Virus genome (UHGV): UHGV-0231863
Direction: 5' to 3' (one strand)
DNA length: 44,709 bases
Source of the DNA: a virus
This document shows, piece after piece, positions 172 to 17,008 of the stretch. The notes below the pieces were generated by a model. That model saw nothing but the letters and a program-made list of their open reading frames with translations. It did no database searches and was not told the DNA's origin. The first letter of the stretch is position 1; every line of letters starts with the position of its first letter. A program made the position numbers and the translations under genes.

Positions 172-921
172 ATGAACTACGCCAAAATCTATGAACAGTT
201 AATATCGAACGCAAAAATCAATCCGTTTAGTGGATATACCGAAAAACATCACATAGTCCCGAAATGCATGGGTGGTGGAGATACTTTTGACAATATTGTA
301 TCTTTGAGCGCTAGACAGCATTTTATTGCGCATTGGCTTCTCTATAAGATACACGGGACTAAAGAACTAGCTTTCGCCTGGAGGGTTATGTGTATTAACC
401 CTAAAAACAATCAAAGGTCAAAAGTTACCTCACATTCCTTTAAGTTGGCGAAAGAGGCTTGGGCTATAGAGATGTCCATGTTGAATACTGGTGTTAAATT
501 TTCTGATAAACGTATAGAAAATCTCAGACAAGCACATCTAGGGCAAAAGGCGTGGAATAAAGGAATTGCTACCGGGGAAACTGCAAGTAGAAAAGCCAGA
601 ATAGAGCATTACATGGCAAACCCACAACGATGTGTAACATGCGACCAGCCGATCCCCTACCGTTTTAAATCACGAGCGCGTAAATATTGCTGCAAGAAAT
701 GCCAGTTCGCGGACCCAAATAGAATCGTTGGCAAGGTTAATAGAAAACCTAACTCCGGAAGTTTTAAGAAGGGCCATACGTTAAAGGGCGAGACTGTCAA
801 GAAAATTTCAGATAAACTTACTGGAATGAAACGCCCGCGCGGGGTATGCCCACATTGCGGAACCGAAGGGGCGCTATCTCTTCTAAAGAGGTGGCACTTT
901 GATAACTGTAAGAAGGGGTGA
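172..921 (+). CDS. HNH homing endonuclease with NUMOD-like DNA-binding repeats
   Basis: ATG at 172; HNH core EKHHIVPK...N...ARQHFIAH; C-terminal repeated SDKxxxxLxxxK modules and Cys pairs; visibly AT-rich compared with flanking structural genes. Confidence 0.85.
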   Translation: MNYAKIYEQLISNAKINPFSGYTEKHHIVPKCMGGGDTFDNIVSLSARQHFIAHWLLYKIHGTKELAFAWRVMCINPKNNQRSKVTSHSFKLAKEAWAIEMSMLNTGVKFSDKRIENLRQAHLGQKAWNKGIATGETASRKARIEHYMANPQRCVTCDQPIPYRFKSRARKYCCKKCQFADPNRIVGKVNRKPNSGSFKKGHTLKGETVKKISDKLTGMKRPRGVCPHCGTEGALSLLKRWHFDNCKKG

Positions 922-2148: not shown

Positions 2149-2508
2149 ATGAGCACCGCTTTCAGTAAACGTATGCAAGGCGTGGGTACGCGCCTGCTAA
2201 CCAAATTCGGTAGCACGGTATCTCTGATTCGCGCTGGTTCAAAAGTATGGGATGAAGTTCTCGGTGAGTACGTCTGGTCTGCGGATGAAGTGTTGCCGTT
2301 GAAGGCCGTTCCGGTTCCGGTAAACGCGGGACTGGTAAACGGTACGACGATTCAGGCTGGCGACATGATTGTTAAAGCCGATTACAGCGTCGTTCCGAAG
2401 ATGGAAGACAAGGTGCAATTCGGCGGCGAGCAATGGTCCATCGTAGCTATTGAGAAGAAGATGGTTAACGATGACGTCGTGGCGTACTTTATTCAGGTGA
2501 GAAAATGA
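2149..2508 (+). CDS. putative head closure / neck protein
   Basis: 119-aa ORF with 4-nt overlap onto next gene; position in neck module. Confidence 0.35.
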   Translation: MSTAFSKRMQGVGTRLLTKFGSTVSLIRAGSKVWDEVLGEYVWSADEVLPLKAVPVPVNAGLVNGTTIQAGDMIVKADYSVVPKMEDKVQFGGEQWSIVAIEKKMVNDDVVAYFIQVRK

Positions 2509-2900
2509 GTTTCGCGCTCGATGTCTCTAAGTTCGTGGAAAAGGCGAAGAAGAACCCTGAGAAGGTGATGCGTCAGGTGTCTATCAAGCTGTTTTCCGCT
2601 ATTATAAAGGCGAGTCCGGTAGACACGGGCCGCTTTCGTATGAACTGGATGGCATCTGGCGGTACTCCTGCTTCCGGGATTACGGACGCTACGGATAAAT
2701 CAGGAAACACAGCAACCGGAAACGCTACGAGTTTCGTGCTGAAAGCCGCTGACTGGCATGAGTTCACGCTGACAAATAATCTGCCGTATGCGCAACGGCT
2801 GGAGTATGGTTGGTCGCAACAGGCGCCAGCCGGGGTTGTCAGGACTAATGTGTCTCGCTTCCAGCAACTCATTAACGAAGAAGCCAACAAGGTGAAATGA
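2505..2900 (+). CDS. HK97 gp10-like head-tail joining protein
   Basis: LPYAQRLEYGW motif typical of HK97 gp10 family; overlapping stop/start with neighbours. Confidence 0.5.
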   Translation: MSFALDVSKFVEKAKKNPEKVMRQVSIKLFSAIIKASPVDTGRFRMNWMASGGTPASGITDATDKSGNTATGNATSFVLKAADWHEFTLTNNLPYAQRLEYGWSQQAPAGVVRTNVSRFQQLINEEANKVK

Positions 2901-3313
2901 TGGGCTACTTTGAGGACTTAACAAAAGCGTTCGATGTTCCGCTGGTAGCCTTCGGAACCGCCAACGGCATCAAGGTCGCGCTTGAAAACATCGACGCGCC
3001 GACGTCAACCGATACGCCATATCTGGCAAGTTACATGTTACTGGCGGATACCGAGCAAGCAGATTTGTTCTTCACGGAACAACGCGCGGGTGTTTATCAG
3101 GTCGACATTAACTACGCATCGGTGAAAGGTAGCGCGCCAATCAATAAAATGGCAGACTTACTTAACACGGCATTCAAAGCAGGTAAGTCATTTTCTCGTA
3201 ACGACATCTGCGCCGAGGTTCAATCGGTTAGCCTGGGGCCGCTGATTGTAGAAAACGGATGGGCCAAACGACCATTGTCAATTAACTTTATTGCATTCAC
3301 CAAGAGGCTGTGA
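2897..3313 (+). CDS. putative tail terminator / tail completion protein
   Basis: 138-aa ORF immediately upstream of the major tail protein candidate. Confidence 0.35.
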   Translation: MMGYFEDLTKAFDVPLVAFGTANGIKVALENIDAPTSTDTPYLASYMLLADTEQADLFFTEQRAGVYQVDINYASVKGSAPINKMADLLNTAFKAGKSFSRNDICAEVQSVSLGPLIVENGWAKRPLSINFIAFTKRL

Positions 3314-4482
3314 ATATGGCTACAACTCCTTTTAAGGGCGCGAATACTGCGCAATTCTATGTGGCAGAAACTACCCCTGGCGTAACACCGACTAACCCGG
3401 TCTGGTCGCCATTGCGTAACACAGGTGGCGTTCCTGCCATTACCCGCGACACGCTGACCTCCAACGAACTGGACGGCAGCCGTGAAACTACGTCAATCCG
3501 CACCGGTAACAAGCAGGTTAGCGGAGAATACGCTATTGAGCTTAGCTCGAAAAGCCAGGACGACTGGCTGGCGGGTGCTTTAGGCTCTACATGGCAATCC
3601 GGTAGTTCTCTGACCGGGCTATCAATTACCGTCACGCCTGCAGGCAAGACCTTTACCCGTGCCGAAGGTAGCTTTATTTCTGACGGCGTTGAAGTGGGCG
3701 ACCTGATTGCGTTTACCGACTTAACCGGTGACAACGCAAAACCGTTTATCGTAACTGCAGTAGAGGCGCTGGTAGTGACCGGGGCGGGTATCCAGCATAC
3801 CCTGACCACAGAGACAGTAACTACCGCCGCTAAGACAGGGGATAAACTGGAAACGGGAAGCCGGTGCAAGACGTTCTCTATTCTCACCTGGTACAAAGGC
3901 CAGTGCGGCGGGACTGACGCGTACACACTAACCAAAGGCGTGGAAGTTTCTGGTTTTACCATCGAACAGGCTGTTAACGCTATGGTAACTGGCAGCTTCC
4001 CGTTCATCGGTCGCAGTCAGGAGATTCTCACCACGCGGCCGTCTGGTTCTGATTTCTCCTCTGTTACGTTTGGTGACGAGCCATTCTCCTCGGTCGATGT
4101 TTCTGTGTTCGACGGTTCTACGCCGTTGCGTTGCGACAGCCTGACCATCACCAACGACAACAGCGCGTCCGCACAGTTCGAACTCGGCAACACTAACGTA
4201 GCGTTTGTGGAGCGTAGCCGAGCAGCTAACACCTTCTCCATCTCCGGTAAGCTGTACGACATGGCGATGATTCAGAAGTTTATCAACGAGCAGCAGGTGG
4301 AGATTAACTCTATTCTGGCTGGGGTAAACGGGGCTATGTCTTTCAGTTTGAAACGTGCAGAACTTACGGCGGTTACACCTGAGATTGGAGGACCTGAGTC
4401 AATCACTCAGTCTATTGAAGGTCAGGCTACTGGCAACCAGTACCAGTCGTCTATTGTTATTCAGCGTATCACATACGCATAA
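3310..4482 (+). CDS. major tail protein (putative)
   Basis: 390-aa Thr/Ser/Gly-rich beta-type protein, last gene of neck block, followed by a strong terminator. Confidence 0.5.
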   Translation: MNMATTPFKGANTAQFYVAETTPGVTPTNPVWSPLRNTGGVPAITRDTLTSNELDGSRETTSIRTGNKQVSGEYAIELSSKSQDDWLAGALGSTWQSGSSLTGLSITVTPAGKTFTRAEGSFISDGVEVGDLIAFTDLTGDNAKPFIVTAVEALVVTGAGIQHTLTTETVTTAAKTGDKLETGSRCKTFSILTWYKGQCGGTDAYTLTKGVEVSGFTIEQAVNAMVTGSFPFIGRSQEILTTRPSGSDFSSVTFGDEPFSSVDVSVFDGSTPLRCDSLTITNDNSASAQFELGNTNVAFVERSRAANTFSISGKLYDMAMIQKFINEQQVEINSILAGVNGAMSFSLKRAELTAVTPEIGGPESITQSIEGQATGNQYQSSIVIQRITYA

Positions 4483-4510: not shown

Positions 4511-5065
4511 TTACAAACCTAATCTTAAAGCAATGCCTATAGCGTTCGATTTAACGTAACCCGGTATGATGTAGGTGTCATAATCTTTTACACCATCAAT
4601 ATCGTACAGGTAACCGCGGCTGTCCCCTTCAAACGTATGGCCGTCTCTGTGCAAGCGGACGATTCTCACATCATGCCCCGCGGCAACGATAGGGGCTACT
4701 TCGCTGGCGAACCCGCCATCAGACACCACAAAAACTTCGTCGCCGTCGGGCAAGTTTCCGGCAAGATACTTACCGAAATAATCATTACCGAATACCGGTT
4801 TAATGAATTGCTCGGAAATGGCAATCATGAACTGACGCCGAGACAACCCGTTAAGGAAACCCTCTGGCTTTTCTTTCCGCGCCCGGTCGTCGTAGCCGTC
4901 GAGAAACTCGCGGTAAGCATCCTGGCCTAACGCAGCCATAGCAATATTGAACATCGGATTCTTGAAACTGGCGACACCCTTCGCAAAGCCCATTTCTACC
5001 AGCGCCCTAGCAAGTGTGTCTTTCCCGCAGCCCGCAGGACCATTAAGAATAATTACCTTAGCCAT
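4511..5065 (-). CDS. dNMP kinase-like P-loop kinase
   Basis: Walker A GPAGCGKDT at N-terminus; later VSDGGF...HDVRIVRLHRDG block resembles T4 gp1-type deoxynucleoside monophosphate kinases. Confidence 0.55.
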   Translation of the reverse strand: MAKVIILNGPAGCGKDTLARALVEMGFAKGVASFKNPMFNIAMAALGQDAYREFLDGYDDRARKEKPEGFLNGLSRRQFMIAISEQFIKPVFGNDYFGKYLAGNLPDGDEVFVVSDGGFASEVAPIVAAGHDVRIVRLHRDGHTFEGDSRGYLYDIDGVKDYDTYIIPGYVKSNAIGIALRLGL

Positions 5066-5550
5066 TATTTATCACTCCCATGTGGTTTTAAGTGTGTAGA
5101 GTTCCCGTTACAGTCGTATTCAGTAACTGCGTGAGTGGTTATGCCGAGTTCGCGGAAATGCTTTATTACCGCTGGAGAGTCGTCGAATGCACACAAGATT
5201 CTCTCCGGCCCAATAGCACGCAACACCTCTTCTTTAATTACGATGTCTTTTCTGTTGTCGTGTTTGCTGCGCATGATTAACTGATAAAATTCTACGCGGT
5301 GGCGCTGCAACCACATTCTGGTTTCTTTTTCCGCGTCATCACTACGGCCTGTTAAGATAATAACGGCATAGCGACGATTAAGGGCGTTACACAGTTCGAT
5401 GTTATCTTTAATGGGTGCATCGTCTTTGCACGCCATGTTAAATGGTTTCCACGCCCAGGTTTCGCCGTAGTTATCTTTCGGCAGCAGGTGTAAACGATGA
5501 GTACCATCTGCCAATGTCCCGTCTAAATCGAAAATCACAATATCTTTCAT
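5065..5550 (-). CDS. HAD-superfamily phosphatase (nucleotidase / polynucleotide 3'-phosphatase-like)
   Basis: HAD motif I FDLDGTL at residues 7-13; start overlaps stop of the kinase gene. Confidence 0.6.
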   Translation of the reverse strand: MKDIVIFDLDGTLADGTHRLHLLPKDNYGETWAWKPFNMACKDDAPIKDNIELCNALNRRYAVIILTGRSDDAEKETRMWLQRHRVEFYQLIMRSKHDNRKDIVIKEEVLRAIGPERILCAFDDSPAVIKHFRELGITTHAVTEYDCNGNSTHLKPHGSDK

Positions 5551-6677
5551 CCAAGCATCTCCGGTGAAATAGTTAAACGTGCGACCTCGCCATATTCGGC
5601 GCTATAAGTAATTACGTTTGCACTGCGGCCCGACATCCACCCACCGCGGGAGGCATATGCATCTTTAGCCGCGAGAGTGCGGTGTTGCTCAACAATCATG
5701 TTACGGCTTTCTACAATCTTTTGGTGGTGCAGGTGACCCACGTGGGCGTAGCTGTAAACACTCTCGCCGAACGCTTTGCGGAACTTGGCGATCATAACCG
5801 GTTCGATAGCGTCGAATCGTGCTTTATGCCCATGATGGAAGAACAGCGTCGTTTTGCCGTGTTGCACCATCTTGTAAACATCCGGCGACGTATCGACGAA
5901 CACACGCGGCTCATTGTCGTACAGCGTACTAAACATCTCAGCTAACCAAATCATTCCGCTTTCGTCGTGGTTACCTTGCACGATAAGCAAGCGAACATTT
6001 TTATGTTTAACGAGAGCCATATCAATGACACGGCGGACCATACGAATCATGTAGCGTACAAGTTTCTGATAGCGGGTGTCAGCGTCAAGAACATGACCAC
6101 TGGCAGGTGTAACGGCGTCCAGACTATCGAAATGCGCAAGGTCGCCCAGCAGATTAATAACTCCTGTTCCGGCATCCGGTGCTTTCTGGAACGCTGCGTC
6201 GAACCAGCAGGAGAACAGGTCTTCCGCAATCTTCATGTCCCAGTCGTCGCCGCTCTCGTCAGCCCAGGCCAGCATACCGAGATGGAAATCAGACACAGTG
6301 TAAAGGTTGAGTAGCTTGTCGTCTCGTTTGGCGCGAACGGCTTTAACAGGTGCAACTGGTGTAATCTCCGACTTCATGCCTTCGATTACGGCTTTCATCA
6401 ATTCAACCTGACGTTCGGCATCGGTGTCGGTCTTAACCCATTGCAACTTGGTGTTGCCAAACTCATCCACCAGTGATGACGTTCCTTTAATCTTGTAGCC
6501 GTCCGGTACAAGGTAACTAACGTCACGCCCGTGGCCTACACCTTTCTTAGCCAGCTTCGCTTTACGGATACGAATAACGCGGTCGGAGATGCCGTATTTA
6601 CGGGCGATGTCGATATTCTTCATACCGGCGTTCAATTCTTCCTGTAACTGTTCGTCGGTTATTTTCTTCCTGGCCAT
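5547..6677 (-). CDS. calcineurin-like metallophosphoesterase with N-terminal HTH
   Basis: N-terminal HTH (IARKYGISDRVIRIRK) then phosphoesterase motifs DFHLG, GDLAHFD, GNHD, HHGH, GHLHH. Confidence 0.65.
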   Translation of the reverse strand: MARKKITDEQLQEELNAGMKNIDIARKYGISDRVIRIRKAKLAKKGVGHGRDVSYLVPDGYKIKGTSSLVDEFGNTKLQWVKTDTDAERQVELMKAVIEGMKSEITPVAPVKAVRAKRDDKLLNLYTVSDFHLGMLAWADESGDDWDMKIAEDLFSCWFDAAFQKAPDAGTGVINLLGDLAHFDSLDAVTPASGHVLDADTRYQKLVRYMIRMVRRVIDMALVKHKNVRLLIVQGNHDESGMIWLAEMFSTLYDNEPRVFVDTSPDVYKMVQHGKTTLFFHHGHKARFDAIEPVMIAKFRKAFGESVYSYAHVGHLHHQKIVESRNMIVEQHRTLAAKDAYASRGGWMSGRSANVITYSAEYGEVARLTISPEMLG

Positions 6678-6714
6678 GCTTATTCCTCGTGTTTAGGATT
6701 TGTCCTATACTAGC

Positions 6715-6921
6715 TCACTTCTCTTTGACATTCGAGTTGCACGCCCAGATTAAGATAAATACCCACGGCAGCAGAACCCAACCAAGAAACAGATTAGCCA
6801 TGAATATCGCTAACTTCGCTTTATGGTTACGGAAGTACGCAACCAGGAAAGGCGCGAAATAAGCGAGCAGTGCAAACAGAATTAAGGAAACTGGTAAACT
6901 GGACATTTTAAACCCCTTCAT
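6715..6921 (-). CDS. superinfection-immunity-like small membrane protein (Imm family)
   Basis: 68 aa, two predicted TM helices, NLFLGWVLLPWVFILIWA motif; own promoter upstream. Confidence 0.5.
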   Translation of the reverse strand: MKGFKMSSLPVSLILFALLAYFAPFLVAYFRNHKAKLAIFMANLFLGWVLLPWVFILIWACNSNVKEK

Positions 6922-6936
6922 TGTTGGTGTAAGTGA

Positions 6937-6965
6937 ATAGTACCCTATTATATTGGGGTGTGCAA
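6937..6965 (-). promoter_or_regulatory. promoter TTGCAC-17-TACTAT with AATAG-N4-CTATT operator (6936-6949)
   Basis: Minus strand CTTGCACACcccaatataatagggTACTATTCAC upstream of Imm-like gene; near-identical to cassettes at 28984 and 30284. Confidence 0.55.
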
Positions 6966-7073
6966 GTAATGTGATAGAATAAGTTTGCGCCTAGTGTCGC
7001 ACACGAAAAGCGGGTGGTTCCCGTCTGGCGCATTTATCGTTAACCTGTAACCTCTTAACCAAAGGATTAAAGA

Positions 7074-7490
7074 ATGAAACTTTCTGATTTTTATTTCGAA
7101 GAGAAAGCACTGGTAGGCAAGAAGATGCCCATTCTGCTGCCAAACGGCGAAGACTCCGGTGAATGGCTTAACGTTGTAAGTCCCGATGCGGATGTCGCCG
7201 TTAAAGCGGGGCGTGCTTTCATTATTGCGTACCGTCGCGGGTTGGCGCGTTTCGAAGAACTGGAAAAAGCCGCCAAAGAATCCGGCGACTATACTGAATA
7301 TAACCTGGCTATTAACGAACTGGCGGAAGACCTCAACCGGCAACTCGCGGCAGAAGTCGCAAACGGCTGGAGCTTTGATGAGCCTTTCTCTAAAGAAGCA
7401 TTTAACAAATTGCTGGACCAGTTCAAGGCATTAGGCACACAGGTAGCAGCGTTCCATAACGCTGAGCGCAAAGCATTACAGGAAAAGTAG
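7074..7490 (+). CDS. tail assembly chaperone (G-like)
   Basis: 138-aa acidic protein immediately upstream of the tape measure gene; downstream ORF is in the -1 frame. Confidence 0.5.
   Translation: MKLSDFYFEEKALVGKKMPILLPNGEDSGEWLNVVSPDADVAVKAGRAFIIAYRRGLARFEELEKAAKESGDYTEYNLAINELAEDLNRQLAAEVANGWSFDEPFSKEAFNKLLDQFKALGTQVAAFHNAERKALQEK
7481..7487 (+). other. candidate -1 programmed ribosomal frameshift site (GGAAAAG)
   Basis: Heptamer ending in AAAAG just before the stop of the upstream chaperone ORF; -1 frame is open from here to 7855. Confidence 0.35.
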
Positions 7491-7522
7491 ACGCGCTGTA
7501 CAGGTTCGCCACCTATGAGTTT

Positions 7523-7855
7523 GTGGATAAGCATAAAATCAGAGAGTTTGATTCTATAGCCGACGGACACGAACAGGCGCTTATCGCGATGGGTGTAATC
7601 GATAAGAAAAAACGTGCAGCGCGACGGGGTGGGCCAGAATGCCCGCCCCTTTTTATATCCACCTTCGAGACGTACTGCGACATTAAGTTTACGCGACACG
7701 TGCGCGAGGACGCTGTAGTATTGTTCGCAAGAGAATCCGTTACGTGGCAAGACCTGAAAGCCTATCTCGATGTTACGCAAAAACAGCTTAGCCTGTTCGA
7801 GATAGACATTATCATGGGCTTAGAAGCAATCTTTGAAGGTAGAAATCATGGCTGA
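7523..7855 (+). CDS. tail assembly chaperone extension (GT-like, -1 frame)
   Basis: ORF in the -1 frame relative to 7074..7490, open from ~7466; ends overlapping the tape measure start. Confidence 0.4.
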   Translation: MDKHKIREFDSIADGHEQALIAMGVIDKKKRAARRGGPECPPLFISTFETYCDIKFTRHVREDAVVLFARESVTWQDLKAYLDVTQKQLSLFEIDIIMGLEAIFEGRNHG

Positions 7856-10121
7856 TACCGCTAGCTTGATCGTACGAGTATCATCGACCGGCGTCGATAA
7901 AACCACATCACAACTGAACGGGCTTACCAAAGCCGCGGGGGCCGCCGCCGCTGCCGTTGTCAGTCTGGAAACTGCCAAACAGGTGTTCAGTGCGCTGGTG
8001 GACTCCCAGCGCAACTTCGATAAGCTGAACTCCGGCCTCATCACAATGACCGGGAGCGCCGAGAACGCTGCTAAGGCATTCAGCGTCCTGCAACAGTTCG
8101 CAAAAGAAACTCCGTATGGCCTCAATCAGGCGGTAGAGGGGTTTACCAAGCTCGTGGCGCTAGGTCTTAACCCCAGCAAAGAGGCGTTAATATCCTACGG
8201 CAACACCGCCGCAGCTATGGGCAAAGACCTTAACCAAATGATTGAGGCAGTTGCCGACGCCAGTACATTTGAATTTGAGCGCTTAAAAGAGTTCGGTATC
8301 AAGTCTTCCCAACAGGCGGATACAGTTTCGTTTACGTTCCGTGGCGTAACGACCACGGTTAAAAAGAACTCCGAAGAGATTCAGAAATACCTGCTAAATA
8401 TCGGTAACACTGATTTCGCCGGAGCGATGGAGACGCGCTCGAAGACCTTAGATGGTCAGTTATCTAGCCTGGCGGACTCCTTCGATGGTCTTGTTCTTGC
8501 GGTAGCGCAATCCGGTTTTGGCGACGCGGTAGGCGAACAAGCGGCAACAGCGGAAGATGCTATCACCGCACTCACCGACGCCATCGCGTCCAATGAGATC
8601 TCCGCCACGCTCCAGGATTGGGTGACACTGTTCAATGAGTCGTTCAAGTTTATTTCTGATGCCCTGAATGACCTGGCATTCGATACCGAGGACAAATCCG
8701 TTGATATGTCCGACTCGCTGGGGGATATACCGGATGCCATCCGTGAGTGGTTGCCGGATATCCAGCAGACATTCCACGAGGTTATTGCGTGGTTCCAGCG
8801 CATTGACGACTACGCGGTAGCGTTAGGCCAGACCCTTGCTGATGTGTTTGACCCGAGCAAAACGTCGGCGCTCACATTTAAAAAACTGACTGCAGAGGCT
8901 GATGCCGCATACGACGCCAGTATAAAACGTGCAGAGGCCGAATCCCAAGCCATTACCGACAGGTCTAAGCAGCGTAAGAAAGAAATTGAGGAACAGCGCA
9001 AGCAGTACGACGAGCGTAAGAAGCAAGAAATTGACTTAGCCAGCCTTGTTAATAAAAAGGGCGGAACTGGTGGGGTGGGGACAACCGACGATAAAGCAGC
9101 AAAAGCCGCCGCCAAGAAAGCAGAGCAATTGCGGAATCAGGCGCAAGATTACCTCGACACTTTGGCCCGTCAGAACAACGACGAGTTAAAGGCTATCGAC
9201 GCGCAGGAACAGCAGAAACTGGCTAAGGCAAAAGAGTTCTACAGCCAGGGCGCGTTGTCCCTGAAAGAATATGAACAAGCTAAAACAGCTATCGTCCTCG
9301 AAGCCGGGCAAAAACGACAAGATGAACTGGATAAACGCCAGAAAGAAGCCCAGGAAAAGCAGCAGAAAGGTGACGACTTCATGGCTCAGATTATGGGTCA
9401 GAACGCTACTGAGCTTGAGCTTCTCGACATCCAGGAACAGCAGAAACTGGCGGTAGCGGATAAGTACCGCGAGCAGGGTTTGATTAGCGAGAAGCAGTAT
9501 CAGGCCGCTCTTAACGCCATCAACGAGCAATACGCAACCAAACGTGCCGATGCAACGGCAACGGCCTTTGGTAACATGGCCTCAAACATCGGGTCTGCGT
9601 TGGGTGAGGCTTCTGGCGCGTACAAGGCATTCGCTATCGTACAGGCCACTATCGCCACGTACACCGCAGCTATTGAGGCGTACAAGTCAACGGCAGCTAT
9701 CCCTGTAGTTGGCCCGTTCCTGGCCCCTGTAGCCGCTGCCGCTGCCGTTGGTGCAGGTATGGCGCAGGTTTCCGCTATCCGGTCCGCGCGTGAACAGGGC
9801 GGACAGTTATCCGCAGGGCAGGCTTCCACCATCGCAGAACGCGGTAAACCAGAAGTTATTATGCCGGCTGGCGCATCTCGTGTTCGCACAGCACAGCAGA
9901 TGAAAGAAATTATGGGGCAAAACGGGTCTTCTTCCGGCCCGTCTAATGTTACTATCGTAAACAACACGAGTTCTCAAATCGGCAACGTATCCACTGAGCA
10001 AGATGATGAAGGCCGTTTGCGAATCATCATCGAGGAGCATGTGGCTGCCTCTTTGCAGAACAGCAACAGCAAGATTAGCAAGGCCCGCAAAGCCACAAGA
10101 AATGCGCCGGGGTTTAAATAA
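7848..10121 (+). CDS. tail tape measure protein
   Basis: ~758 aa from ATG 7848; long coiled-coil Ala/Gln/Lys/Glu-rich centre; follows chaperone pair. Confidence 0.85.
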   Translation: MADTASLIVRVSSTGVDKTTSQLNGLTKAAGAAAAAVVSLETAKQVFSALVDSQRNFDKLNSGLITMTGSAENAAKAFSVLQQFAKETPYGLNQAVEGFTKLVALGLNPSKEALISYGNTAAAMGKDLNQMIEAVADASTFEFERLKEFGIKSSQQADTVSFTFRGVTTTVKKNSEEIQKYLLNIGNTDFAGAMETRSKTLDGQLSSLADSFDGLVLAVAQSGFGDAVGEQAATAEDAITALTDAIASNEISATLQDWVTLFNESFKFISDALNDLAFDTEDKSVDMSDSLGDIPDAIREWLPDIQQTFHEVIAWFQRIDDYAVALGQTLADVFDPSKTSALTFKKLTAEADAAYDASIKRAEAESQAITDRSKQRKKEIEEQRKQYDERKKQEIDLASLVNKKGGTGGVGTTDDKAAKAAAKKAEQLRNQAQDYLDTLARQNNDELKAIDAQEQQKLAKAKEFYSQGALSLKEYEQAKTAIVLEAGQKRQDELDKRQKEAQEKQQKGDDFMAQIMGQNATELELLDIQEQQKLAVADKYREQGLISEKQYQAALNAINEQYATKRADATATAFGNMASNIGSALGEASGAYKAFAIVQATIATYTAAIEAYKSTAAIPVVGPFLAPVAAAAAVGAGMAQVSAIRSAREQGGQLSAGQASTIAERGKPEVIMPAGASRVRTAQQMKEIMGQNGSSSGPSNVTIVNNTSSQIGNVSTEQDDEGRLRIIIEEHVAASLQNSNSKISKARKATRNAPGFK

Positions 10122-14053: not shown

Positions 14054-17008
14054 ATGTCAAGCGGATGCGGTGACGTTTTAAGCCTGGCGGATTTACAAAC
14101 CGCCAAGAAACATCAGATTTTCGAGGCCGAGGTTATCACTGGCAAATCCGGCGGTGTCGCCGGTGGTGCCGATATTGATTACGCGACAAATCAGGTTACT
14201 GGACAGACCCAGAAGACGTTACCTGCCGTGTTGCGTGATGCTGGTTTTAAACTGGCAGATTTTGATTTCACGTCAGGCGGTACACTATCCGCTAACGACC
14301 GAAACACCGCAGTTTTGTGGCCGTCGTCCTCTGGCGGTGACGGGGATTGGTACTATTGGTTGGGTGCTCTACCAAAAATTATCCCGGCGTCATCTTCTCC
14401 GCAGTCCACCGGTGGCGTGGCAGATGGGGCGTGGCAGCCTGTCGGGTCGGTCATACTGCGGCAGCAAATATCTGATGTAAACGGTGCAATTCTGTACCCA
14501 GATTTACATGTGGCGCGATGGAAGGACGAATACGACCCGCGCGCATGGGGCGCCGTGGGCGACGGCGTAACTGATGATACTCAATCTATTTTTAATGTAT
14601 TAGCAGCTTCCCCCAACAATTGGATTATAGACGGCAGGGGTTTGACTTATAAAGTTTCCCAATTACCTGACATTAGTAAATTTAAGAATGCTGCATTCGT
14701 TTACGAGCGCGTAGCCGGGCAACCGCTTACTTATGTAGCTGATGGCTTCTTTAACGGCTCACTAACTAAGGTGACGGATACCCCGTTCTACAACGCATGG
14801 ACGCAGGATAAAACTTTCGTCTACGACCATGTTATTTACGCCCCGTTTATGGCGGGCGAACGACATGGTGTTCAAAACTTACATGTAGCTTGGGTTCGCT
14901 CTGGAGACGACGGGCAGACTTGGTCAATGCCTGAGTGGTTGACTCCAATCCATGCTGACTATAATGCTAGTGTTTCTACGGACAGAGTTAACTACCACTG
15001 CATGAGCATGGGTACGTGCGGCAACCGATTATATGCAGTTATAGAAACCCGCTACTTATCTAATATGCAGATGAAGAAGGCAGAACTTTGGTCACGCCCA
15101 ATGCCGTATTTTAGACACCCAACCGGCGGAATAACTATTAGTTCTGGCTCCACTACTGCTACCATTGTCATAGAAAATCATGGCCTAAAAGCAGGAGATG
15201 CGGTTAACTTCTCTAATACATCGGCAACCGGCGTATCGGGTAATATGACGGTTGCGTCTATAATTAACCGAAATACGTTCACTGTTACGCTCTCAAGCCC
15301 TGCGGGCTCCACCATAAACAATGCGGGGGTTACCTGGAACTTCGCAACGCGATTCTGGGACAGCCCATGGGAAATTACCGAATTGCCGGGGGTGGCATAC
15401 TCCACTAACGCTGATTTGTGTGTCACGGAGACACATAGTTTTGCGGTTATAGATGATGCTAACTACACTATCGCTGTCGGCTATCACAACGGCGATGTGT
15501 CTCCTCGGCGTCTCGGTGTCTTGTATTTTAGTAACGTGTATGACAATCCAGGCGTATTCGTTCGTCGCACTGTCGCTCAGGCATACGCTGATAACGCTTC
15601 TGAGCCGTGTGTGAAAAGTTATGGCGGTGTGCTCTACCTTACCACACGCGGCACATTACCTACTTCCCCCGGCTCTACACTGGCGATGAGCACCGATTCT
15701 GGGCAAAACTGGAGCTACTTGCGATTCCCGAACAATGTACATCACTCCAATCTTCCGTTCGCTAAAGTAGGTGACTATCTCTACATCTTTGGTACAGAAC
15801 GTGCATTTGGTGAGTGGGAAGGTGGCGAGCCGGACAGCCGCTATGAAGGTTCGTATCCGAGGACCTTTATGTGCAAAGTCGATGTGTCGTCCTGGCCTTC
15901 ATCTTTAGATGATGTTCAGTGGTTTAATATTACCGACCAAATATACCAGGGCCATATCGTTAACACTGCCGTCGGCGTCGGCTCTGTCTGTGTTAAAGAT
16001 GGCTGGTTGTACTATATCTTTGGAGGGGAAGACTTCTTCTCTCCCTGGAGCATCGGGGATAACAGTGCGAGGTTATGGTACAAACATGATGGGCACCCGG
16101 CTGACTTATATAGCTACCGGATAAAGATTGAAGACCACCCGTATGTATCACGTGATTTCAAATACGGAGCAACTCCTAACCGTACAATACCTGTCGCCAT
16201 GGGGGTAGATGGTGTACGCCATGTAGAAGCACCTTTAACGTTTGACAATGATGTAAGCGTGTACTCCCTGCATGTAACTGGTCTGGAATACGATGGCACA
16301 CAACAGTCTGCCGTGCGTGCACGGTTTGATGGTGATTACGGGCTGATTTCAAAAACAGTCCCCACTAAAACCCCATCGGGTCAAAGACTGATAGTTAGCG
16401 GTGGTGATGGTGCATCCCGTTCCGATGGTGCGTTGCTGCAACTGTACGGGGCAAACAATGCAACACCTAACAGGGCTATTATGTATGCGTCAGGAGGCTT
16501 CTACTCATACAACAATTTCCTTCCTTACTTAGACTCGCAAGTGTCTTTAGGTTCGGCGGGTAATAGGTGGACTACGGTGTACGCTACCACCGGTACGATA
16601 AACACGTCTGATGGTACACTTAAGACGAACAAAGAGGAAATTGAGGGACAACTCCTTACCGCATGGGAGGATATACATGTAATATCTTTTAAGTGGCTTG
16701 AAAGCCTAGCAATCAAGGGTGACACTGCAAGGATACACTTCGGTGTGATAGCCCAAGATGTGCGAGACATCTTGGTCAACCATGGGCTTATGGAGGAGGG
16801 TTCTACAGACTGTAAATATGCTTTCTTGTGCTACGACTCAATTGAAGCTACGTATGATATTGATGAAGATGGTCAGACTGTACAAGTACCCCCTCCCGGC
16901 GGCAGATGGGGGGTTAGGGCGGACCAGATGTTCTTCATAGAGATTGCGTATCAGCGTAAGAAGATGCGCGAGTTCGAGAAGAGGCTGGCAGCGCTAGAAG
17001 CCAAATAA
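14054..17008 (+). CDS. tailspike with sialidase-type (Asp-box) domain and C-terminal intramolecular chaperone
   Basis: GAVGDGVTDDT entry motif; two Asp-boxes SGDDGQTW and STDSGQNW; C-terminal SDGTLKTNKEEIEG auto-cleaving chaperone motif; central part AT-rich. Confidence 0.75.
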   Translation: MSSGCGDVLSLADLQTAKKHQIFEAEVITGKSGGVAGGADIDYATNQVTGQTQKTLPAVLRDAGFKLADFDFTSGGTLSANDRNTAVLWPSSSGGDGDWYYWLGALPKIIPASSSPQSTGGVADGAWQPVGSVILRQQISDVNGAILYPDLHVARWKDEYDPRAWGAVGDGVTDDTQSIFNVLAASPNNWIIDGRGLTYKVSQLPDISKFKNAAFVYERVAGQPLTYVADGFFNGSLTKVTDTPFYNAWTQDKTFVYDHVIYAPFMAGERHGVQNLHVAWVRSGDDGQTWSMPEWLTPIHADYNASVSTDRVNYHCMSMGTCGNRLYAVIETRYLSNMQMKKAELWSRPMPYFRHPTGGITISSGSTTATIVIENHGLKAGDAVNFSNTSATGVSGNMTVASIINRNTFTVTLSSPAGSTINNAGVTWNFATRFWDSPWEITELPGVAYSTNADLCVTETHSFAVIDDANYTIAVGYHNGDVSPRRLGVLYFSNVYDNPGVFVRRTVAQAYADNASEPCVKSYGGVLYLTTRGTLPTSPGSTLAMSTDSGQNWSYLRFPNNVHHSNLPFAKVGDYLYIFGTERAFGEWEGGEPDSRYEGSYPRTFMCKVDVSSWPSSLDDVQWFNITDQIYQGHIVNTAVGVGSVCVKDGWLYYIFGGEDFFSPWSIGDNSARLWYKHDGHPADLYSYRIKIEDHPYVSRDFKYGATPNRTIPVAMGVDGVRHVEAPLTFDNDVSVYSLHVTGLEYDGTQQSAVRARFDGDYGLISKTVPTKTPSGQRLIVSGGDGASRSDGALLQLYGANNATPNRAIMYASGGFYSYNNFLPYLDSQVSLGSAGNRWTTVYATTGTINTSDGTLKTNKEEIEGQLLTAWEDIHVISFKWLESLAIKGDTARIHFGVIAQDVRDILVNHGLMEEGSTDCKYAFLCYDSIEATYDIDEDGQTVQVPPPGGRWGVRADQMFFIEIAYQRKKMREFEKRLAALEAK

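What the first reader, a model, noticed from the sequence alone, without database searches (positions are those of the whole stretch)
7466..7490. Probable -1 programmed frameshift joining the two tail assembly chaperone ORFs
The ORF 7523..7855 is in the -1 frame relative to 7074..7490 and is open from ~7466. The upstream ORF ends GGA AAA G|TAG, giving a GGAAAAG heptamer in which the AAG A-site codon can slip to AAA. This matches the conserved G/GT chaperone arrangement upstream of tape measure genes, although the P-site codon (GAA) is not a canonical slippery codon.
Basis: partly seen in the sequence, partly recalled or inferred. Interest (0 to 1): 0.45.

Follow-up and report, generated by a model that had tools for sequence, protein, structure and literature searches.

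The report
Phage tail chaperone -1 frameshift site
This is the expected ribosomal -1 frameshift that fuses the two tail assembly chaperone reading frames just upstream of the tape measure gene in a K1G-like E. coli phage; it is already annotated in GenBank and RefSeq, and the only mildly unusual point is that the conserved signal is "A AAG + stop codon" rather than a classical slippery heptamer.

Summary
ORF 7074..7490 (138 aa, Phage_TAC_4) ends CAG GAA AAG TAG. The -1 frame is open from 7466 to 7855 (Phage_TAC_18) and ends overlapping the tape measure ATG at 7848.

The window is about 99.9% identical to Escherichia phage K1G (Kagunavirus).

About 90 related loci (43–99% aa identity) support a real recoding site:
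- The frame in which conservation is periodic switches from 0 to -1 at this point.
- The -1/0 overlap is as short as 7 nt.
- No start codon is conserved for the downstream frame.
- The only invariant synonymous positions in G plus early T lie in A_AAG_TAR_NNG_CGY_TG.

The codon before AAG varies (GAA, GCA, GTA, AAA, GGA, TCA), so the clade does not need the GGAAAAG heptamer or P-site re-pairing. The essential event is tRNA-Lys slipping from AAG to AAA. The adjacent UAG/UAA stop probably helps, because I found no conserved downstream structure. No experimental proof exists.

Verdict: real, ordinary, already known; low interest.

The parts
7074..7490 (+). G-type tail assembly chaperone ORF (138 aa), the product of standard decoding; equals K1G ORF22A
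   Evidence: Pfam PF08748 Phage_TAC_4 at E=1e-5, 26.2 bits against a cutoff of 21.1. phrog_15027 positions 1-138. RefSeq K1G YP_009168805.1.
7466..7490 (+). Zone where frame 0 and frame -1 are both open (22 nt plus the stop), i.e. the window in which the shift must occur in this genome
   Evidence: -1-frame stop TGA at 7463-7465, 0-frame stop TAG at 7488-7490. In relatives this zone shrinks to 16 nt and to 7 nt.
7481..7487 (+).
   Evidence: Present in 55 of 79 IMG/VR relatives. Replaced by CGCAAAG, GGTAAAG, AGCAAAG, AAAAAAG, GGGAAAG, GGCAAAG or GTCAAAG in the rest.
7484..7487 (+). A_AAG core shift site: tRNA-Lys decoding AAG (7485-7487) can re-pair with AAA (7484-7486)
   Evidence: Invariant in 67-80 unique related sequences. 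This includes the synonymous A at 7484 and the G at 7487, although AAG is only 37% of Lys codons in these genes. A_AAG is the most shift-prone tetramer in E. coli (PMC4066793).
7488..7490 (+). TAG stop of G, immediately 3' of the shift codon; a candidate pause element ('shifty stop')
   Evidence: TAG or TAA directly follows AAG in all 79 loci and all 11 GenBank relatives. It is never TGA, although TGA is 38% of K1G stops. One exception has A_AAG_TTA_TAG (L123).
7493..7498 (+). GCGCTG (Ala-Leu, codons 3-4 of the T segment) with invariant wobble bases; possible 3' context element, function unexplained
   Evidence: GCG in 80/80 and YTG in 80/80 unique relatives, against a background of 37% GCG and 44% CTG+TTG. 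No conserved pairing partner.
7487..7855 (+). T segment, read in the -1 frame after the shift (122 aa, starts VDALYRFATYEF…); its stop TGA at 7853-7855 overlaps the tape measure start
   Evidence: Pfam PF23812 Phage_TAC_18 at E=1.1e-18. phrog_15027 positions 135-259. Protein conservation V-x-A-L-Y-x-F-A-x-W begins at the first codon after the shift in all relatives.
7074..7855 (+). GT fusion product: 7074..7487 joined to 7487..7855 with one base read twice; 260 aa
   Evidence: translation. The K1G version, which differs from the window by one residue (nt 7360 C/T), is exactly ADA82267.1 / YP_009168804.1 / QNO11738.1 / QNO11960.1. It is a joined CDS in NC_027993.1 and MT711527.1.
7848..10121 (+). 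Tape measure protein gene (757 aa from ATG 7848), downstream partner of the G/GT chaperones
   Evidence: phrog_1538 at E=1.2e-194. Pfam TMP_3 at 38.9 bits, just under its cutoff of 41. K1G ORF23.

Best explanation
Most ribosomes translating the chaperone gene 7074..7490 terminate at TAG 7488 and make the 138-aa G protein. A minority slip back one base at the last sense codon: the single E. coli tRNA-Lys (anticodon UUU), paired with AAG 7485-7487, re-pairs with AAA 7484-7486. The next codon read is then GTA 7487-7489 (Val), and translation continues in the -1 frame to 7855. This gives a 260-aa G-T fusion (…ALQEK-VDALY…). By analogy with lambda gpG/gpGT, G and the G part of GT coat the tape measure protein, and the T part recruits the tail tube protein, so the shift rate sets a fixed G:GT ratio. 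The shift at A_AAG and the fusion junction are supported by sequence, comparison and existing annotation. That the slip happens mainly while the UAG stop sits in an empty A site (one-tRNA, 'shifty stop' route) rather than as a two-tRNA slip on G_GAA_AAG is inferred, as is the chaperone function.
For: (1) Both frames encode chaperone domains, and a PHROG built from fused proteins spans them. (2) The K1G joined CDS has the same junction; other depositors annotate it as a 'frameshift product'. (3) 491 of 505 phage records hold the fusion as two pieces in two frames, down to 45% identity. (4) In 79 IMG/VR and 11 GenBank relatives, G is almost always 138 aa and ends NNA AAG TAR. The overlap can be only 7 nt (CT TAA CGC AAA GTA A in L080/L082), which pins the shift to GCA_AAG or the stop. 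(5) Mean column conservation by codon position is 0.91/1.06/0.43 in frame 0 upstream and 1.30/1.30/0.68 in frame -1 downstream, so the coding frame switches at the site. (6) Of 183 third-codon positions, only 9 are invariant: 4 are Met/Trp, and the other 5 are the A before AAG, AAG, GTA, GCG and YTG around the site. (7) The first possible start codon in the -1 frame ranges from codon 3 to codon 108 among relatives and mostly lacks an SD; GTG 7523 has none. (8) A_AAG is the best E. coli tetramer, and NNA_AAG sites are used in cdd and IS1222 (PMC4066793; PMC5009743). (9) One-tRNA slippage with a vacant A site needs no downstream structure (PMC6771820), and none is conserved here. (10) At least 14 of 79 loci (CGCAAAG, AGCAAAG) have no possible P-site re-pairing.
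Against: No protein-level or reporter evidence exists for this phage or clade in the literature I searched. In reporter constructs, A_AAG without a stimulator was barely above background (0.147% vs 0.112%, PMC4066793), so a useful rate needs a stimulator that I did not positively identify. The stop's role is inferred only from its invariant adjacency, which could be inherited from a common ancestor. One relative has a sense codon (TTA) between AAG and the stop (L123). In K1G itself G_GAA_AAG allows tRNA-Glu to re-pair with GGA through a G:U pair, so a two-tRNA slip is not excluded, and both routes give the same protein. The G of AAG is also fixed by the overlapping Val codon.
Confidence: 0.85

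Rival explanations
1. Classical two-tRNA (tandem) -1 slippage on the heptamer G_GAA_AAG during translocation. tRNA-Glu moves from GAA to GGA (tolerating a central G:U pair) and tRNA-Lys from AAG to AAA; the stop codon plays no role.
For: GGAAAAG is the commonest form (55 of 79 loci). G at the first base of the penultimate codon is 64/67 and the preceding base is G in 52/67. tRNA-Glu slipping from GAA to GGA is documented in a suppressor context (PMC6771820). PRFect lists XXYYYY-type ('twofour') motifs among annotated phage chaperone shift sites and discusses GAA→GGA re-pairing through G:U (PMC10885494). Single relatives carry true canonical heptamers at the same spot: G_GGA_AAG in L050 and A_AAA_AAG in L105/L107.
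Against: Many relatives with the same architecture have C_GCA_AAG, A_GCA_AAG, G_GTA_AAG or G_TCA_AAG, where the P-site tRNA cannot re-pair or barely can. No downstream structure that would stall translocation is conserved. This model does not explain why the stop is always adjacent and never TGA.
Confidence: 0.35
2. There is no frameshift. The downstream frame is an independent gene translated from its own start (GTG 7523 or similar), as many GenBank records annotate it ('hypothetical protein' or a second 'tail assembly chaperone').
For: the ORF listing gives a 110-aa GTG ORF at 7523..7855. Many depositors annotate two separate CDSs. The phage Shashou announcement says there is no canonical slippery sequence (PMC6776780).
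Against: GTG 7523 has no SD (upstream GGTTCGCCACCTATGAGTTT). The annotated starts differ between relatives: a TTG inside the conserved Ala-Leu, GTG at codon 12, ATG at codon 31-34, and up to codon 108. Amino-acid conservation (V-x-A-L-Y-x-F-A-x-W) and -1-frame periodicity begin at the first codon after AAG, upstream of all these starts. Synonymous sites are frozen exactly at the junction.
Confidence: 0.05
3. The fusion is made by transcriptional slippage: RNA polymerase deletes one A in the A-run, so a fraction of mRNAs carry G and T in one frame.
For: The site contains a run of A (GGAAAAG). Two relatives have A7 (AAAAAAG).
Against: The run is only 4 A here and 3 A in the GCA/GTA/TCA variants. 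This is far shorter than the runs of about 8-9 or more identical bases that efficient polymerase slippage needs (established knowledge; reviewed in PMC5009743). Invariance of the G and of the adjacent stop is not explained.
Confidence: 0.02

Closest known systems
Escherichia phage K1G ORF22A/ORF22B (GU196277 / NC_027993.1; ADA82267.1, YP_009168804.1) and the Finnish Kagunavirus records (fTaEco01, fKuEco01, fFiEco03)
   Same: It is the same locus: 99.9% nucleotide identity, one nucleotide different across 782 nt, the same joined CDS and the same junction …ALQEK|VDALY….
   Different: Nothing substantive; there is one amino-acid difference (A96V). Those records give only an annotation, with no stated shift site, mechanism or experiment.
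Phage lambda gpG/gpGT and the conserved tail assembly chaperone frameshift of tailed phages (Levin et al. 1993; Xu, Hendrix & Duda 2004, 2013, 2014; summarised in PMC5009743)
   Same: There are two overlapping frames directly upstream of the tape measure gene. The shift is -1 and near the end of the first frame, onto an ..A_AAG Lys codon. The outcome is a short product plus a C-terminally extended fusion. The role is presumed to be the same: setting a fixed G:GT ratio (30:1 in lambda).
   Different: Lambda uses the canonical heptamer G_GGA_AAG. Here the P-site codon is GAA, and elsewhere in the clade GCA, GTA or TCA; the shift codon is the last sense codon, and the stop follows immediately. 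G and T belong to other Pfam families (Phage_TAC_4 / Phage_TAC_18). A 2.4-kb opposite-strand module separates the tail tube gene from G.
A_AAG / NNA_AAG 'tetramer or hexamer' -1 sites: Bacillus subtilis cdd (A_CGA_AAG) and IS1222 (G_CGA_AAG); systematic E. coli data of Sharma et al. 2014
   Same: Only the Lys-tRNA needs to re-pair (AAG to AAA). The preceding codon ends in A and need not re-pair. The expected efficiency is low.
   Different: Those sites depend on an upstream SD-like element or a downstream structure. Neither is conserved here; instead the stop is adjacent and a GCGYUG block lies 5 nt downstream.
'Shifty stop' or one-tRNA ('hungry') frameshifting: P-site tRNA slippage while the A site waits, as in prfB and the Listeria phage PSA tail gene tsh (CCC_UGA, +1), and the dnaX/HIV one-tRNA route
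   Same: The shift codon is directly followed by a stop, or in the cited cases by another slowly decoded codon. No downstream RNA structure is required (PMC6771820; PMC5009743).
   Different: The well-known stop-adjacent programmed cases are +1; here the direction is -1. Dependence on the stop is inferred from conservation only.

Membership tests
Lambda G/GT-type tail assembly chaperone programmed frameshift (Xu, Hendrix & Duda 2004) | Two overlapping ORFs located directly upstream of the tape measure gene and downstream of the major tail (tube) gene | tested here: met
   G is 7074..7490, T runs to 7855, the TMP ATG is at 7848, and the tube gene is 3310..4482 (PF18906, E=2e-40). One deviation: a 2.4-kb minus-strand module (4511..6921) lies between the tube gene and G.
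Lambda G/GT-type tail assembly chaperone programmed frameshift (Xu, Hendrix & Duda 2004) | Second ORF is in the -1 (or +1) frame relative to the first and lacks its own conserved initiation signal | tested here: met
   It is in the -1 frame. GTG 7523 has no SD. The first possible start ranges from codon 3 to codon 108 in relatives, mostly without an SD.
Lambda G/GT-type tail assembly chaperone programmed frameshift (Xu, Hendrix & Duda 2004) | Canonical slippery heptamer X_XXY_YYZ within the overlap | tested here: not met
   G_GAA_AAG is not X_XXY_YYZ, and nothing else in 7466..7490 qualifies. Only 3 of 79 relatives have a canonical heptamer (G_GGA_AAG, A_AAA_AAG). The minimal Z_ZZN requirement (A_AAG) is met.
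Lambda G/GT-type tail assembly chaperone programmed frameshift (Xu, Hendrix & Duda 2004) | Arrangement and shift site conserved among diverged relatives, with nucleotide-level constraint at the site | tested here: met
   491 of 505 records hold the fusion in two frames. A_AAG_TAR is invariant in 67-80 unique sequences of 43-99% identity. The only frozen synonymous sites are at the junction.
Lambda G/GT-type tail assembly chaperone programmed frameshift (Xu, Hendrix & Duda 2004) | Both parts are homologous to tail assembly chaperone families | tested here: met
   PF08748 Phage_TAC_4 (26.2 bits, cutoff 21.1) and PF23812 Phage_TAC_18 (67.5 bits, cutoff 27). phrog_15027 and phrog_313 'tail assembly chaperone'.
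Lambda G/GT-type tail assembly chaperone programmed frameshift (Xu, Hendrix & Duda 2004) | Fusion protein made at a low fixed percentage and required for tail assembly | not testable with these tools
   No proteomic or reporter data for Kagunavirus or Jerseyvirus in the searched literature.
Z_ZZN / NNA_AAG single-codon -1 shift sites (cdd, IS1222; Sharma et al. 2014) | A_AAG, with the A-ending preceding codon free to vary and only tRNA-Lys re-pairing cognately | tested here: met
   Penultimate codons are GAA 46, GCA 16, GTA 4, AAA 2, GGA 1 and TCA 1, all ending in A. A at -4 is invariant.
Z_ZZN / NNA_AAG single-codon -1 shift sites (cdd, IS1222; Sharma et al. 2014) | Flanking stimulator: an upstream SD-like sequence or a downstream hairpin/pseudoknot | tested here: not met
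   Downstream fold z-score is -0.74. Relatives have z near 0. The RNAalifold consensus is -0.38 kcal/mol with 3 trivial pairs. No conserved SD-like block lies 10-14 nt upstream.
Stop-assisted ('shifty stop') one-tRNA frameshifting | [quoted passage not shown] | tested here: met
   TAG is at 7488-7490. The stop is adjacent in 79/79 loci and 11/11. There is one exception, A_AAG_TTA_TAG (L123).
Stop-assisted ('shifty stop') one-tRNA frameshifting | Shift efficiency depends on stop identity or release factor level | not testable with these tools
   Only indirect evidence: TAG 73%, TAA 27%, TGA 0%, against 10/52/38% genome-wide in K1G. The base after the stop is A or C in 66/67.

The most novel reading that the evidence does not exclude
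The whole Guernseyvirinae clade (Kagunavirus, Jerseyvirus and relatives on Hafnia, Serratia and Raoultella) may use a distinct class of chaperone frameshift signal. It would be a structure-free, stop-codon-dependent one-tRNA -1 slip at A_AAG_UAR, tuned by RF1-read stops (never UGA) and by a conserved non-structural 3' element GCGYUG. The G:GT ratio would then be coupled to termination kinetics rather than to an RNA structure.
Probability: 0.3. Interest if true: 0.45.

Novelty: already known. Interest (0 to 1): 0.2.

Why it matters
Its practical value is for annotation. Most Kagunavirus and Jerseyvirus records still list the T frame as a separate 'hypothetical protein' with arbitrary start codons, and one genome announcement states that no slippery sequence exists (PMC6776780). 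The comparison here shows the site is A_AAG at the last codon of G and gives the exact join. For recoding specialists, the clade is a natural series of NNA_AAG-stop sites, from zero P-site re-pairing to canonical heptamers, that could be used to test stop-assisted -1 slippage. It does not change what is known about tail assembly chaperones.

Tried and rejected
1. Downstream stimulatory structure:
- The MFE fold of 7488-7580 is not better than shuffles (z -0.74).
- 60-nt folds in 16 relatives have z around 0.
- RNAalifold on 26 diverse sequences gives -0.38 kcal/mol and no covarying pairs.
- A long-range GCGCUG/CAGGCGC pairing seen in the window's MFE is not conserved. Rejected.

2. Upstream SD-like stimulator: no conserved block beyond coding constraints. 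The AGGA at 7480-7483 is absent from the GCA/GTA variants. Rejected as a clade-wide element.

3. Independent start for T: rejected.

4. Phage-encoded tRNA affecting Lys or stop decoding: no tRNA genes in the window.

5. Exact look-up of the window's own fusion failed because of a single A96V difference from K1G. The K1G version was found, and six alternative junction placements were not.

6. Literature searches for experimental evidence in this clade found none.

Full report
**What is there.**
- The window from 6900 to 8100 is 99.9% identical to Escherichia phage K1G (Kagunavirus, Guernseyvirinae), and 117 phage records match at 80% identity or more.
- ORF1 (7074..7490, ATG, 138 aa) ends …TTA CAG GAA AAG TAG.
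- The -1 frame has a stop at 7463-7465 and is open from 7466 to TGA 7853-7855. That TGA overlaps the tape measure start (ATG 7848, ATGGCTGA). Every coordinate in the finding is correct.
- ORF1 is a Phage_TAC_4 protein (26.2 bits, cutoff 21.1). The -1 frame is a Phage_TAC_18 protein (E=1.1e-18). The next gene is a tape measure protein (phrog_1538, E=1e-194).
- PHROG 15027, a 259-position 'tail assembly chaperone' profile, is matched at positions 1-138 by ORF1 and 135-259 by the -1 frame. Fused proteins of this kind were therefore already in the databases.

**It is already annotated.**
- RefSeq NC_027993.1 (K1G) lists a joined CDS 'tail assembly chaperone ORF22B' at 14890..15671, which is window 7074..7855, beside the short ORF22A.
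- I built the seven possible fusion proteins for every shift position in the overlap. Only the one shifting at the last codon (…ALQEK|VDALY…) is in the protein collection, as ADA82267.1 / YP_009168804.1 / QNO11738.1 / QNO11960.1 / UniRef D2XJ88.
- The window's own version was not found because it differs by one residue (nt 7360 C/T).
- Many other depositors annotate T as a separate gene with assorted starts. The phage Shashou announcement says the clade has 'no canonical slippery sequence' (PMC6776780).
- I found no experimental demonstration.

**Comparative evidence that the shift is real and where it happens.**
- A tblastn search with the 260-aa fusion finds 505 phage records. In 491 of them, one place covers at least 80% of the query as two pieces in two frames, down to 45% identity, on Escherichia, Salmonella, Serratia, Hafnia, Klebsiella and Raoultella hosts.
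- In 11 GenBank loci and 79 IMG/VR loci (62 distinct G proteins, 43-99% identity), G is almost always 138 aa and ends NNA AAG followed at once by TAG (58) or TAA (21).
- The seven bases ending at AAG are GGAAAAG 55, CGCAAAG 11, GGTAAAG 5, AGCAAAG 3, AAAAAAG 2, GGGAAAG 1, GGCAAAG 1 and GTCAAAG 1.
- The overlap of the two frames is as short as 7 nt (L080/L082: CT TAA CGC AAA GTA A). In those genomes the shift can only occur on GCA_AAG or at the stop.
- Column conservation has codon periodicity in frame 0 upstream (0.91/1.06/0.43 bits for positions 1/2/3) and in frame -1 downstream (1.30/1.30/0.68). The switch is at the site.
- The T-frame protein motif V-x-A-L-Y-x-F-A-x-W starts with the very first codon after AAG.
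- The first possible start codon in that frame lies anywhere from codon 3 to codon 108 and mostly lacks an SD.
- Of 183 third-codon positions (all of G plus the first 45 codons of T) in 80 unique sequences, only nine are invariant. Four are Met/Trp. The other five are the A before AAG, the G of AAG, GTA, GCG and YTG, which together form the block A_AAG_TAR_NNG_CGY_TG.
- Background usage in these genes is AAG 37% of Lys, GAA 60% of Glu, GCA 21% of Ala and GCG 37% of Ala.
- The A at 7484 has no coding reason to be fixed across Glu, Ala, Val, Lys, Gly and Ser codons. It is exactly what tRNA-Lys needs in order to find AAA one base back.

**Mechanism.**
- The essential event is AAG→AAA re-pairing of tRNA-Lys.
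tRNA-Glu can re-pair GAA→GGA through a G:U pair, and such a slip is documented (PMC6771820). 'GGAAAA'-type motifs are listed among phage chaperone sites (PMC10885494).
- The clade as a whole does not need P-site re-pairing. C_GCA_AAG and A_GCA_AAG allow none.
- The alternative codons GCA, GTA and TCA are read by cmo5U34 tRNAs (my own knowledge). This fits the reported rule that NNA_AAG efficiency rises with the wobble flexibility of the tRNA reading the 5' codon (PMC5009743).
- A_AAG alone is barely above background in reporters, and reaches 5.6% only with a strong pseudoknot. Yet I found no conserved structure: z = -0.74, z around 0 in 16 relatives, and a consensus energy of -0.38 kcal/mol with no covariation. 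No conserved upstream SD-like element is present either.
- What is conserved is the stop directly after AAG. It is never TGA, although TGA is 38% of K1G stops and would keep Val in the T frame. It is followed by A or C in 66/67 unique sequences.
- One-tRNA slippage with a vacant A site is an established route that needs no downstream structure (PMC6771820).
- I therefore favour slippage of peptidyl-tRNA-Lys while the stop waits for a release factor, with GUA-Val decoding capturing the new frame. This is inference. Both routes give the same protein.
- One relative has A_AAG_TTA_TAG (L123), so strict adjacency is not absolute.
- The invariant GCGYUG at 7493-7498 is unexplained.

**Function.** By homology and gene order, this is the counterpart of lambda gpG/gpGT. 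There, the ratio set by the shift (30:1) is needed for tail assembly, and neither protein is in the virion (PMC5009743). That role is inferred here, not shown.

**Verdict.** The feature is real and correctly interpreted, and it is already annotated for this phage. It is a textbook class of recoding, with a non-canonical but known type of shift site (A_AAG tetramer at a stop). Interest is low. The modest added value is the exact definition of the conserved signal for a clade in which annotation is inconsistent.

Noticed in passing
window 2149..2900 (junction 2475..2508): RefSeq K1G carries a second joined CDS (ORF14A/14B, 'tail completion or Neck1 protein', NC_027993 9965..10716). In the window, ORF 2149..2508 ends CAG GTG AGA AAA TGA. 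The next ORF's ATG (2505) overlaps the stop (AAATGA), and the -1 frame is open from 2475. This is again a Lys codon preceded by A and followed directly by a stop (A_AAA_TGA). The downstream ORF has its own ATG, so termination-reinitiation coupling is an equally good reading.
   Followed up: partly
window 7493..7498: GCGCTG (Ala-Leu of the T segment) has invariant wobble bases in 80/80 unique relatives, against 37% and 44% background usage. No conserved pairing partner was found. It may be a non-structural 3' stimulator or a termination-context element.
   Followed up: partly
window 7488..7490 and homologous position in L043-L131: The stop after A_AAG is TAG (73%) or TAA (27%) and never TGA, although K1G genes use TAA 52%, TGA 38% and TAG 10%. 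The next base is A or C in 66 of 67 unique sequences.
   Followed up: partly
L123:1318-1335 (IMGVR_UViG_2162886012_000023): This is the only relative in which the stop is not adjacent: GCA AAG TTA TAG. A Leu UUA codon lies between the shift codon and the stop, and the T-frame motif is kept (K-V-I-A-L-Y).
   Followed up: no
L050 (IMGVR_UViG_2974654489_000001, 44851 bp) and L105/L107: These relatives have a canonical heptamer at the same position. L050 has G_GGA_AAG (the lambda heptamer), one A→G change from the window. L105 and L107 have A_AAA_AAG (the dnaX heptamer).
   Followed up: no
window 4511..6921 (minus strand): A 2.4-kb opposite-strand module lies between the tail tube gene (3310..4482) and the chaperone gene, interrupting the usual tube-chaperone-tape measure order. 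By K1G annotation it encodes an ATP-binding protein, polynucleotide kinase, DNA repair exonuclease and a superinfection immunity protein.
   Followed up: no
window 172..921: This ORF corresponds to K1G ORF12, annotated as a homing endonuclease (similar to T6 mobE), and sits among the head and neck genes.
   Followed up: no
L130 (IMGVR_UViG_638275545_000001): Here the G homologue is broken after about 97 codons (…LEIGEWLESR*) and no T frame follows in register. This is probably an indel or sequencing error in an old record rather than a different architecture.
   Followed up: no
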